Shown here: in pieces, positions 16,592 through 19,500 of the stretch
How the letters are laid out: the number at the start of each line of letters is the position of its first letter
Position numbering within the stretch: position 1 is the stretch's first letter
DNA from: Escherichia coli O127:H6 str. E2348/69
GTDB taxonomy: Bacteria > Pseudomonadota > Gammaproteobacteria > Enterobacterales > Enterobacteriaceae
Length of the DNA: 64,000 bases
Reading direction: 5' to 3' (one strand)
Assembly: GCF_000026545.1 (NCBI RefSeq)
Contig: NC_011601.1
Program-made: the position numbers

Positions 16592-19500
16592 TGAACCCGA
16601 CAGAATAAAATGAGATTGCAGGAAAATTCGGTTAACGGAGTGATCGAGTTAACGTTGTTAAGTTAAATATTGGTTTTAACTCTGATTTACATGGTTGCTG
16701 TGTTGTTAAATTGTACAAAGATGTTATAGAAACAAAATGTAACATCTCTATGGACACGCACACGGATAACAACTATGAACAAATCAGGGAAATACCTCGT
16801 CTGGACAGTGCTCTCTGTAATGGGAGCATTTGCTCTGGGATACATTGCTTTAAATCGTGGGGAACAGATCAACGCGCTGTGGATTGTGGTGGCGTCGGTC
16901 TGTATCTATCTGATCGCTTACCGTTTTTATGGGCTGTATATCGCCAAAAATGTGCTGGCGGTTGACCCGACGCGTATGACGCCAGCGGTGCGCCATAACG
17001 ACGGGCTGGACTATGTGCCGACGGACAAAAAAGTGCTGTTCGGTCACCATTTTGCGGCCATTGCCGGAGCAGGTCCGTTGGTTGGGCCGGTACTGGCGGC
17101 GCAAATGGGCTACCTGCCGGGGATGATCTGGCTGCTCGCCGGGGTGGTTCTCGCCGGTGCGGTGCAGGATTTCATGGTGCTGTTTGTTTCTACGCGCCGT
17201 GACGGTCGCTCGCTGGGTGAGCTGGTCAAAGAAGAGATGGGGCCAACCGCCGGGGTGATTGCGCTGGTGGCCTGCTTTATGATCATGGTCATTATCCTTG
17301 CCGTGCTGGCGATGATCGTGGTGAAAGCCCTGACTCATAGCCCGTGGGGAACGTATACCGTTGCGTTCACTATTCCGCTGGCGCTGTTTATGGGGATCTA
17401 TCTGCGCTATCTGCGTCCGGGGCGTATTGGCGAAGTGTCGGTCATCGGCCTGGTGTTCCTTATTTTCGCCATTATCTCTGGCGGCTGGGTGGCAGAAAGT
17501 CCGACCTGGGCACCGTACTTTGACTTTACCGGCGTGCAGCTGACCTGGATGCTGGTGGGTTACGGTTTTGTGGCGGCGGTGCTGCCAGTGTGGCTGTTGC
17601 TGGCCCCGCGCGACTACCTCTCAACCTTCCTGAAAATCGGGACTATCGTCGGTCTGGCGGTGGGCATTTTGATTATGCGCCCGACGCTGACCATGCCTGC
17701 GCTAACTAAATTTGTCGATGGCACTGGCCCGGTATGGACCGGTAACCTGTTCCCGTTCCTGTTTATCACCATCGCCTGTGGCGCGGTGTCTGGCTTCCAT
17801 GCACTGATCTCTTCCGGCACTACACCGAAGATGCTGGCGAACGAAGGGCAGGCGTGCTTTATCGGCTACGGTGGGATGTTGATGGAATCCTTCGTGGCGA
17901 TTATGGCGCTGGTTTCCGCCTGTATCATCGATCCGGGTGTGTACTTCGCCATGAACAGCCCGATGGCGGTGCTGGCTCCGGCAGGGACGGCGGATGTGGT
18001 TGCTTCTGCCGCGCAGGTGGTGAGTAGCTGGGGCTTTGCGATTACCCCGGATACGCTAAACCAGATTGCCAGCGAAGTGGGTGAACAGTCGATCATTTCT
18101 CGTGCGGGCGGTGCGCCGACCCTGGCGGTGGGGATGGCCTACATTCTGCACGGTGCGCTGGGCGGCATGATGGATGTGGCGTTCTGGTATCACTTCGCCA
18201 TTCTGTTTGAAGCACTGTTTATTCTGACGGCGGTGGATGCGGGTACGCGTGCTGCGCGCTTTATGTTGCAGGATCTGCTGGGCGTGGTGTCTCCGGGCCT
18301 GAAACGGACCGATTCACTGCCTGCTAACCTGCTGGCAACGGCGCTGTGCGTGCTGGCGTGGGGCTACTTCCTGCATCAGGGCGTGGTCGATCCGCTGGGC
18401 GGTATTAACACCTTGTGGCCGCTGTTTGGTATTGCCAACCAGATGCTGGCAGGGATGGCGCTGATGCTCTGTGCTGTGGTGCTGTTCAAAATGAAACGTC
18501 AACGTTACGCCTGGGTGGCGCTGGTACCAACGGCCTGGCTGCTGATTTGTACCCTGACCGCAGGCTGGCAGAAAGCGTTTAGCCCGGATGCGAAAGTCGG
18601 CTTCCTGGCGATTGCTAACAAGTTCCAGGCAATGATCGACAGCGGCAATATTCCGTCGCAGTATACTGAGTCACAACTGGCGCAACTGGTGTTCAACAAC
18701 CGTCTGGATGCCGGATTAACCATCTTCTTTATGGTGGTTGTGGTGGTTCTGGCGCTGTTCTCGATTAAGACGGCACTGGTGGCATTGAAAGAGCCGAAGC
18801 CAACGGCGAAAGAAACGCCATATGAGCCGATGCCGGAAAATGTCGAGGAGATCGTGGCGCAGGCGAAAGGCGCGCACTAAAGTCAGAGTGAGGGGGAATG
18901 TGCTGAGCGTTCCCCTTACTCTCATCCCGAGCGTGTTGATAGCAATTAAGCCCTCTTAATTCAGGAGGGCATTTGTATTACCGGAGGTTTAGATGTTTGA
19001 TTCACTGGCAAAAGCCGGAAAATATTTAGGTCAGGCGGCGAAACTGATGATTGGTATGCCTGATTACGACAACTATGTCGAACATATGCGGGTTAACCAT
19101 CCCGATCAAACGCCGATGACCTACGAAGAGTTTTTCCGTGAGCGGCAGGACGCGCGCTACGGTGGAAAAGGCGGCGCGCGCTGCTGCTAAATATGTACGT
19201 CAGGCTTTAAACGATTCCACTTTTTCGAACGCTGCACGCAACGTACCTGGTGTCAGCGTGACCGGCAGGTAATGAATGGATTCCACCGGGCGTAGGGTGT
19301 GGGCAATCATTTTGTCGATCTCCACCTGATTATTGATATCCACTTCCAGCTCCGCCAGCGTAGTCGGCAGATGAAAACGCTGATACGCTCCAGTTAATTG
19401 CGCGAGCACATCATCCTGACCCAGCAAGGCGCTTTGCACCAGAATTCCGTAGGCGACTTTGGTGCCGTGGAGAAACTTCTCGGTTTGTGGCAAAACGGTC

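What the first reader, a model, noticed from the sequence alone, without database searches (positions are those of the whole stretch)
18881..18992. Structured spacer between cstA and ybdD
Two hairpins are visible: GAGGGGAA...TTCCCCTT (18889..18918, imperfect 11-bp stem) and GCCCTC-TTAATTCAG-GAGGGC (18949..18969), the latter ending 10 nt before the ybdD RBS. Neither has a U-tract, so they look like processing, stability or translation-control structures within a cstA-ybdD co-transcript rather than terminators.
Basis: seen in the sequence. Interest (0 to 1): 0.2.

Follow-up and report, generated by a model that had tools for sequence, protein, structure and literature searches.

The report
Repeat-derived hairpins between cstA and ybdD
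The two stem-loops between the pyruvate-transporter gene cstA and its small partner gene ybdD are real but ordinary: one is a cut-down copy of a known enterobacterial repeat, the other an old, weak terminator-like hairpin, and both most likely shape where the cstA message ends.

Summary
The window is E. coli E2348/69 (phylogroup-B2 type). Both hairpins exist.

- **Hairpin 1 (18885-18922):**
- **Hairpin 2 (18950-18970):** 8 bp, -11.8 kcal/mol.

The spacer is not a conserved regulatory RNA. There is no Rfam match, and it is one of three E. coli haplotypes:
- 112 nt, as here: 1188 of 5426 genomes.
- About 143 nt, with a full BoxC/HPG1 repeat.
- 182 nt, with BoxC plus a REP, as in K-12.

Hairpin 1 aligns to the centre of the BoxC composite repeat with the core missing. 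Hairpin 2 is the ancestral spacer hairpin. A covariance model built only from Citrobacter and Salmonella spacers hits the 64-kb window once, exactly there (E 2e-5).

74 of 76 other enterobacterial genomes carry some strong hairpin in this slot. These are simple terminators, REP-like elements or BoxC pairs.

Published K-12 Term-seq places an RNA 3' end in the spacer, 9 nt after the BoxC hairpin. It also places the primary btsT 3' end in the U-tract of the equivalent hairpin between the paralogues btsT and yjiX.

Best reading: a leaky terminator plus an exonuclease barrier in a cstA-ybdD read-through transcript. This is ordinary and of low interest.

The parts
16775..18880 (+). cstA (pyruvate/proton symporter), stop codon TAA at 18878-18880
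   Evidence: ORF list. RefSeq annotation of the identical E2348/69 record.
18885..18922 (+). Hairpin 1: 16-bp stem-loop starting 4 nt after the cstA stop. It is a remnant of a BoxC-type composite repeat: the outer GGGTGAGGG / CCCTCACCC-like arms are kept and the inner core is missing.
   Evidence: Folds. Alignment to K-12 BoxC copies. Present in all Escherichia alleles examined. No BoxC/HPG1 core in the window. -22.6 kcal/mol as + strand RNA against -13.2 as - strand RNA.
18923..18943 (+). Linker CATCCCGAGCGTGTTGATAGC. CCGAGCG matches the 3' end of the BoxC unit. G18931 corresponds to the K-12 Term-seq 3' end at 632098.
   Evidence: Alignments. Adams et al. 2021 supplement, mapped onto the sequence.
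18944..18986 (+). Block orthologous to the Citrobacter/Salmonella cstA-ybdD spacer. It contains hairpin 2 and its tail.
   Evidence: Covariance model R1, built without any Escherichia sequence, gives a single hit in the window: 28.5 bits, E 2.1e-5.
18950..18970 (+). Hairpin 2: 8-bp GC-rich stem with loop AATTC. It is the ancestral spacer hairpin, and most E. coli carry a REP at this place instead.
   Evidence: Folds. Alignments. Invariant in five sampled B2-type alleles.
18971..18980 (+). U-rich tail ATTTGTATTA of hairpin 2. The predicted 3' end of terminated transcripts lies around 18975-18977.
   Evidence: Terminator scan. Discriminant score -4 to -27, below threshold. The same (N)UUUGU motif follows the stem in Citrobacter and at btsT-yjiX, where the mapped 3' end lies in it.
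18983..18987 (+). ybdD Shine-Dalgarno GGAGG, 5 nt before the ATG. It is not paired with either hairpin.
   Evidence: Sequence. Minimum-free-energy structure.
18993..19190 (+). ybdD (65 aa, YbdD/YjiX family), required with CstA for constitutive pyruvate uptake
   Evidence: Hwang et al. 2018, PMC5847655.
19200..20288 (-). hcxA (ybdH), convergent with ybdD. Only 9 nt separate the two stop codons and there is no hairpin between them. Read-through on the - strand therefore meets the spacer hairpins first.
   Evidence: K-12 Rho-dependent 3' end at 631994(-), just past the hairpin-1 homologue.

Best explanation
The spacer is a 'hairpin slot' in the cstA 3' region, filled in this B2-type allele by two RNA stem-loops of different origin.

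Hairpin 2 plus its AUUUGUAUU tail is the ancestral element, shared with Citrobacter and Salmonella. It most likely acts as a weak, leaky intrinsic terminator. Some cstA transcripts end there, and the rest read through to express ybdD, which has no promoter of its own in the spacer.

Hairpin 1 is an internally shortened BoxC-type repeat that starts 4 nt after the cstA stop codon. It most likely acts as a barrier to 3'-to-5' exonucleases and fixes a stable 3' end for cstA mRNA. This would apply to transcripts ended at hairpin 2, and to read-through transcripts that have no protective structure after ybdD. The net effect would be to uncouple cstA and ybdD mRNA levels.

Shown: the structures, their origins, their distribution, and mapped 3' ends at the homologous K-12 element and at the paralogous locus.

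Inferred: that the same happens on this allele, and that ybdD depends on read-through.
For: - **Structures.** They are real and stronger on the sense strand because of G-U pairs: hairpin 1 is -22.6 (+) against -13.2 (-) kcal/mol, hairpin 2 is -11.8 against -9.1.
- **Orthology of hairpin 2.** Model R1, built only from Citrobacter and Salmonella spacers, hits the window once at 18944-18986 (E 2.1e-5). Hairpin 2 is invariant in five sampled B2-type alleles.
- **A persistent slot.** 74 of 76 other genomes, almost all Enterobacteriaceae, have a hairpin of -12 kcal/mol or better in this spacer, although its sequence class changes (simple GC hairpins, REP-like, BoxC pairs). 24 of 72 core hairpins, including the Citrobacter orthologues, score above 0 on a d'Aubenton-Carafa-type terminator discriminant.
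- **The paralogous pair.** K-12 btsT-yjiX has the same layout: stop codon, GC hairpin, UUUGUUCUU, then the small gene. Its discriminant is +32. The primary Term-seq 3' end of btsT (yjiY), at 4589097(-) with 59,788 reads, lies in that U-tract.
- **3' ends at BoxC copies.** In K-12, a 3' end at 632098(+) (LB, OD 2.0) lies 9 nt after the BoxC hairpin in the cstA-ybdD spacer. Another BoxC copy marks the primary lldD 3' end, 1-3 nt after its hairpin, in a Rho-dependent region with a low intrinsic-terminator score. That pattern fits trimming back to a barrier.
- **No promoter.** No sigma-70-like promoter was found on the + strand in 16400-19500.
- **Functional link.** CstA and YbdD work together (PMC5847655).
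Against: - No transcript data exist for this allele. All mapped 3' ends are from K-12, whose spacer differs (BoxC core plus REP, no hairpin 2).
- The K-12 spacer 3' end is weak (about 1,700 reads) and seen in one condition only.
- Hairpin 2 scores below the terminator threshold (-4 at best). By energy, hairpins like it occur about every 3 kb.
- The slot is dispensable in some lineages. Three genomes (two Kosakonia, one Enterobacter sp.) have 14-20 nt spacers with no hairpin. About 536 E. coli genomes have BoxC but neither REP nor hairpin 2.
- The stems show almost no covariation. Their sequence is conserved instead, as expected for repeat-family DNA as much as for a selected RNA.
- The promoter scan is strict and could miss a weak ybdD promoter.
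Confidence: 0.5

Rival explanations
1. Neutral relics. The hairpins are decaying copies of selfish or recombinogenic palindromic repeats (BoxC-type, REP-type). They accumulate in any tolerant intergenic gap and have no selected role in cstA or ybdD expression.
For: - Three haplotypes of 112, 143 and 182 nt coexist in E. coli.
- Spacer length ranges from 14 to 195 nt across genera, with complete turnover of hairpin class.
- Hairpin 1 is a BoxC composite with its core deleted.
- The stems are conserved in sequence, not by covariation.
- This strain also lacks the 183-bp BoxC pair that K-12 has between fepB and entC.
Against: - Hairpin 2 with its flanks is retained between E. coli B2 and Citrobacter/Salmonella.
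- Nearly every genus keeps some strong hairpin in the slot.
- G-U pairs make both stems stronger on the sense strand.
- 3' ends are mapped at the homologous and paralogous hairpins.
Confidence: 0.25
2. The hairpins control ybdD translation, or they are RNase processing sites that create a separate ybdD mRNA with a protective 5' hairpin.
For: - Hairpin 2 lies 12 nt upstream of the Shine-Dalgarno. After a cleavage upstream, it would sit at the 5' end of a ybdD message.
- ybdD has a strong GGAGG Shine-Dalgarno and no visible promoter.
Against: - The Shine-Dalgarno and ATG are not paired with either hairpin in the minimum-free-energy or centroid structure.
- The distance and identity of the hairpin upstream of ybdD vary freely among alleles and genera. 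Some alleles have none there.
- No processing-site data exist.
Confidence: 0.07
3. The hairpins mainly serve the opposite strand. They stop or cap hcxA (ybdH) read-through transcripts that run antisense through ybdD. This is not exclusive of the best explanation.
For: - ybdD and hcxA converge with 9 nt between their stop codons and no hairpin.
- K-12 has a Rho-dependent 3' end at 631994(-), about 10 nt past the hairpin-1 homologue, with Rho score 4.5 and p 8e-6.
Against: - Both stems are markedly weaker as - strand RNA.
- The - strand tail of hairpin 2 scores poorly as a terminator (-33).
- The T-rich side lies more often downstream on the + strand across genera: T8>=5 in 13 spacers against A8>=5 in 5.
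Confidence: 0.1
4. A G-quadruplex / hairpin / duplex switch, as proposed for the HPG1 motif found at this locus in K-12 (Kaplan et al. 2016).
For: K-12 carries HPG1 (GGGAGAGGGTTAGGGTGAG(A)GGG) on the - strand of this spacer. The paper lists it at 632058.
Against: The window has no match to HPG1 within 3 mismatches. The allele has only one G-run on each strand, so a four-tract quadruplex cannot form.
Confidence: 0.02

Closest known systems
BoxC repeats of enterobacteria (Bachellier et al.; 56 bp, about 22-32 copies in E. coli per PMC2267715), equal to the HPG1/HPG2 motifs of Kaplan et al. 2016 (PMC5100583)
   Same: - Hairpin 1 sits exactly where 78% of E. coli genomes carry a BoxC unit.
- Its arms align with the GGGTGAGGG / CCCTCACCC ends of the K-12 composite copies, and the unit's 3' end CCGAGCG is kept.
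- It is extragenic and hairpin-forming.
   Different: - The defining core CCCTAACCCTCTCCCC..GGGGNGAGGGG is missing (28-nt gap).
- The allele is single-copy.
- It cannot form the proposed G-quadruplex.
- That BoxC and HPG1 are the same family rests on my memory of the BoxC consensus. I did not test it against a published BoxC sequence.
REP/BIME elements as intercistronic mRNA stabilisers (malE-malF paradigm, Newbury et al. 1987; from my own knowledge)
   Same: A stable stem-loop between two co-directional genes, expected to block 3' exonucleases and favour the upstream message. In K-12 and 68% of E. coli a true REP occupies the place of hairpin 2.
   Different: Neither hairpin in the window has REP sequence. 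Hairpin 2 is single-copy and older than the REP insertion.
Leaky intrinsic terminators inside operons, and specifically the btsT(yjiY)-yjiX terminator of the paralogous locus
   Same: The gene order is the same: CstA-family transporter, hairpin, YbdD/YjiX-family small gene. Both have a GC stem followed by (N)UUUGU. The btsT hairpin is a mapped primary 3' end.
   Different: Hairpin 2 is weaker (-11.8 against -15.4 to -16.6 kcal/mol). Its tail is interrupted, and its discriminant is below 0 against +32. No 3' end has been mapped on this allele.

Membership tests
BoxC / HPG1 repeat family | Core unit CCCTCACCC-N3-CCCTCTCCCC-loop-GGGGNGAGGGG (HPG1 = GGGAGAGGGTTAGGGTGAGGG on the G-rich strand) | tested here: not met
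   No match in the window within 3 mismatches. Alignment A2 shows a 28-nt gap where the core lies.
BoxC / HPG1 repeat family | Dispersed, multi-copy in the genome | tested here: not met
   The 112-nt allele occurs at one place per genome. The K-12 element at the same site has a median of 14 places per genome.
BoxC / HPG1 repeat family | Homology of the flanking arms and position (descent from a BoxC copy) | tested here: met
   The arms and the unit's 3' end align with five other K-12 copies and with the K-12 allele of the same locus.
REP / BIME | About 35-nt imperfect palindrome of the GCCGGATAAGGCG..CGCATCCGGC type, hundreds of copies | tested here: not met
   Neither hairpin has the REP sequence. 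The K-12 allele does, with at least 39 places per genome.
Intrinsic (Rho-independent) terminator | GC-rich stem of 5-14 bp with a 3-8 nt loop | tested here: met
   Hairpin 2 has 8 bp (5 G-C) and a 5-nt loop. Hairpin 1 also has a qualifying stem.
Intrinsic (Rho-independent) terminator | Uninterrupted or near-uninterrupted U-tract directly after the stem, and a combined discriminant above threshold | tested here: inconclusive
   The hairpin 2 tail is AUUUGUAUUA. The scan listed it, but the discriminant is -4 to -27. Hairpin 1 has no U-tract (-43 or lower), so it does not meet this feature.
Intrinsic (Rho-independent) terminator | RNA 3' end mapped in the U-tract, or termination shown in vitro | not testable with these tools
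   No data exist for this allele. The paralogous btsT-yjiX hairpin does have such an end.
Exonuclease-barrier / mRNA-stabilising 3' hairpin | Stable stem-loop with RNA 3' ends a few nt downstream, independent of a U-tract | tested here: inconclusive
   Stability is met. 3' ends are mapped only at homologous K-12 BoxC hairpins: 9 nt downstream at cstA-ybdD and 1-3 nt at lldD.
Any curated RNA family (Rfam 15) | Covariance-model match | tested here: not met
   No match up to E = 10 in 16400-19500 on either strand.

The most novel reading that the evidence does not exclude
The gap between a CstA-family transporter gene and its YbdD/YjiX-family partner is a selected 'hairpin slot'. It sets the transporter-to-partner mRNA ratio by leaky termination and 3' protection.

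The slot would have been kept since the cstA/btsT duplication. It would be refilled repeatedly by whatever palindrome is at hand (simple terminator, REP, BoxC), so mobile repeats are recruited as interchangeable attenuators. The three E. coli haplotypes would then give different cstA:ybdD ratios.
Probability: 0.25. Interest if true: 0.35.

Novelty: new member of a known kind. Interest (0 to 1): 0.15.

Why it matters
The finding matters little on its own. It shows that a spacer which looks like a structured regulatory RNA is a polymorphic patch of repeat-derived palindromes plus an old, weak terminator.

There are two modest uses:
- E. coli has three natural alleles of the cstA-ybdD spacer (22%, about 10% and 68% of complete genomes). 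They form a ready-made series for testing how BoxC, REP and plain hairpins affect the expression of a transporter and its small partner protein.
- The K-12 data link BoxC hairpins to RNA 3' ends at two of the six copies checked. This gives a simpler reading of that repeat family than the proposed G-quadruplex switch.

Tried and rejected
- **Rfam.** A search at E up to 10 found nothing.
- **Promoter scan.** No + strand promoter for ybdD.
- **Other copies in the window.** Local BLAST found no other copy of either spacer allele.
- **Transcript maps.**
  - No supplements are held for Dar & Sorek 2018, Choe et al. 2022 or the Nanopore RNA paper.
  - The TERMITe and SMRT-Cappable-seq supplements do not mention cstA or ybdD.
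  - Thomason 2015 is not held.
  - Papers that mention cstA-ybdD say nothing about transcripts.
- **Covariation.**
  - MAFFT misplaced gaps around hairpin 2, so I used a covariance-model alignment. The helix is 99.6% paired but almost invariant in sequence, and the alignment is fitted to the model, so it is weak evidence.
  - Hairpin 1 across Escherichia has only one compensatory pair.
- **First terminator tally.** The first version let weak outer pairs swallow the U-tracts and was discarded. The stricter version is.
- **G-quadruplex reading.** Rejected for this allele.
- **Liang et al. 2015.** Their effect is that REPs within about 15 nt of a stop codon stall ribosomes. It could apply to hairpin 1, which starts 4 nt after the stop. 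The paper is not in the library and the idea was not tested.
- **Polarity of the BoxC difference.** I could not decide between core deletion in B2 and the other Escherichia species, and gain or conversion in the remaining E. coli.
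Full report
**Identity of the region.** The window matches E. coli E2348/69 at 100% identity. The genes are:
- cstA at 16775-18880 (+)
- ybdD at 18993-19190 (+)
- hcxA/ybdH at 19200-20288 (-)

The finding covers the 112-nt spacer between cstA and ybdD.

**The observation.** Both hairpins exist.
- Hairpin 1 is larger than described. It spans 18885-18922 with 11 basal pairs, a bulged G and 5 weak apical pairs. Its energy is -22.6 kcal/mol and no shuffle of 200 folds as well. Only three sites on the + strand of the 64-kb window are as stable.
- Hairpin 2 spans 18950-18970, with 8 pairs and -11.8 kcal/mol. By energy alone it is unremarkable, since 20 comparable sites lie on the + strand.
- Hairpin 2 is followed by ATTTGTATTA, which the terminator scan picked up.
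- No Rfam family matches.

**The spacer is polymorphic and repeat-derived.** Aligning the window with other E. coli shows three haplotypes:

| Haplotype | Length | Genomes of 5426 | Source |
|---|---|---|---|
| As in the window (short hairpin 1 plus hairpin 2) | 112 nt | 1188, always one copy; includes ST131, APEC O1 and O127:H6 | |
| Larger left element, no second hairpin | about 143 nt | about 536 (4231 minus 3695) | |
| Larger left element plus a REP where hairpin 2 lies here (K-12 type) | 182 nt | 3695 | |

- The other 4231 genomes carry a larger element on the left, which is a dispersed repeat with a median of 14 places per genome.
- That repeat's G-rich strand is the HPG1 motif of Kaplan et al. 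2016, who list this very copy at 632058 between cstA and ybdD. I take it to be the BoxC family (56 bp, 22-32 copies; PMC2267715), on my recollection of the BoxC consensus.
- The REP itself is present at 39 or more places per genome.

**Origin of hairpin 1.** I compared K-12 BoxC copies from five other loci. They form a composite of an inverted unit, a linker and a direct unit.
- Hairpin 1 aligns to the centre of that composite. Its left arm matches the end of the inverted unit (GTCAGAGTGAGGGGG against GTCGGGGTGAGGG). Its right arm matches the start of the direct unit (GTTCCCCTTACTCT against GTTCCCCTCACCCT). The unit's 3' end CCGAGCG follows after a 28-nt gap where the core should be.
- The window has no HPG1 core within three mismatches.
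- The same short form occurs in E. albertii, E. whittamii and another Escherichia species.
- I cannot say which form is ancestral.

**Origin of hairpin 2.** A scan of species-representative genomes with YbdD gave 80 loci.
- The cstA-ybdD spacer ranges from 14 to 195 nt.
- In Citrobacter and Salmonella it is about 60 nt and consists of AGCCCTCTCC-loop-GGGGAGGGC-GTTTGTA plus the ribosome-binding site.
- A covariance model built from nine such spacers, with no Escherichia sequence, hits the window once at 18944-18986 (28.5 bits, E 2.1e-5). It does not hit the REP-bearing Escherichia alleles.
- Hairpin 2 is therefore the ancestral spacer hairpin, kept in the B2-type allele.
- Its stem sequence is nearly invariant, with little covariation. 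The model also hits BoxC inner hairpins weakly, so hairpin 2 may be related to that motif.

**A persistent slot.**
- 74 of 76 genomes have a hairpin of -12 kcal/mol or better in the spacer. Its class varies between simple hairpins, REP-like elements and BoxC pairs.
- With a stricter definition of the core stem, 24 of 72 score above zero on a d'Aubenton-Carafa-type discriminant, including the Citrobacter orthologues.
- T-rich tails lie more often on the + strand side: T8>=5 in 13 spacers against A8>=5 in 5.
- Hairpin 2 of the window scores -4 at best, and hairpin 1 scores far below.

**Experimental anchors, all from K-12 (Adams et al. 2021, PMC7815308).**
- A Term-seq 3' end at 632098(+) in LB at OD 2.0 lies inside the spacer, 9 nt after the BoxC inner hairpin and upstream of the REP. 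The equivalent base here is G18931, which is also 9 nt after hairpin 1.
- A second BoxC copy marks the primary lldD 3' end, 1-3 nt after its hairpin. It sits in a significant Rho region with a low intrinsic-terminator score. That is the signature of trimming back to a barrier.
- The other four BoxC loci queried had no listed 3' end.
- The paralogous pair btsT-yjiX has the same layout, a GC hairpin plus UUUGUUCUU, with discriminant +32. The primary btsT 3' end at 4589097(-), with 59,788 reads, lies in that U-tract.
- On the minus strand, a Rho-dependent 3' end at 631994 lies just past the hairpin-1 homologue. This fits the absence of any hairpin between the convergent ybdD and hcxA.

**Mechanism.**
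- The most likely reading is that hairpin 2 acts as a leaky intrinsic terminator and hairpin 1 as an exonuclease barrier.
- Together they would give cstA a defined, stable 3' end, while ybdD is made from read-through transcripts.
- No promoter-like site was found upstream of ybdD.
- CstA and YbdD act together in pyruvate uptake.
- Both stems are stronger as sense RNA because of G-U pairs.
- The ybdD Shine-Dalgarno is not sequestered by either hairpin, so translation control is unsupported.
- The main rival is that these are neutral repeat relics. The within-species presence/absence polymorphism and the hairpin-free spacers of three genomes favour that view.
- I give the functional reading 0.5 and the neutral one 0.25.

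**Verdict.**
- The hairpins are real.
- The elements belong to known kinds, and interest is low.

Noticed in passing
window 11600-11610 (fepB-entC intergenic region): K-12 has a 183-bp inverted pair of BoxC/HPG units here (L086 142-324). The window lacks the whole segment and joins cleanly at about 11605-11607.
   Followed up: partly
E. coli genomes in general: B2-type genomes gave far fewer places matching the K-12 BoxC query than other E. coli did: 1 for O127:H6 and 3-5 for others, against 11-21. This hints at lineage-specific expansion or loss of the repeat family.
   Followed up: no
window 19191-19199: The ybdD and hcxA stop codons are only 9 nt apart, with no hairpin or terminator-like site between the convergent genes. 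Transcripts from each gene must run antisense into the other.
   Followed up: partly
L085 581-629 (K-12 btsT-yjiX spacer, - strand): The paralogous transporter and small-gene pair has a canonical intrinsic terminator (GCCCCGC-UUCG-GCGGGGC-UUUGUUCUU) between the two genes. The primary Term-seq 3' end of btsT lies in its U-tract, so yjiX must also depend on read-through or on a promoter of its own.
   Followed up: partly
window about 16795-16835 (K-12 629914 and 629954): Adams et al. list Term-seq 3' ends 20 and 60 nt inside the cstA ORF in K-12, with up to 9,744 reads at OD 2.0. This could be premature termination or a stable 5' fragment near the known CsrA-regulated leader.
   Followed up: no
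window 30455-30492 and 56332-56369: These are the only other + strand hairpins in the window as stable as hairpin 1. The first (AAAAAGCCCGCCAGGTGGGCTTACCTGGCGGGC) looks like a terminator usable from both strands. The second is a GC-rich palindrome (CGCCGCGCGCAGC..GCTGCGCGCGG).
   Followed up: no
L009 and L035: L009 is a 465-bp contig labelled Streptomyces sp. DH24 that carries a 98%-identical ybdD. L035 is a MAG labelled Bacillota that carries an Enterobacter-like cstA-ybdD locus. Both are probably contamination or mis-binning in the public assemblies.
   Followed up: no
L002 spacer (NRZ96052a) and the REP-bearing alleles: Downstream of the REP, or of its empty site, the sequence CYCTCTCAGCAACCTGWTTACCGGAGG may be a decayed remnant of hairpin 2 (compare CCCTCTTAATTCAGGAGGGCATTTGTATTACCGGAGG). 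That would mean the REP took over after insertion. Model R1 does not detect it.
   Followed up: partly
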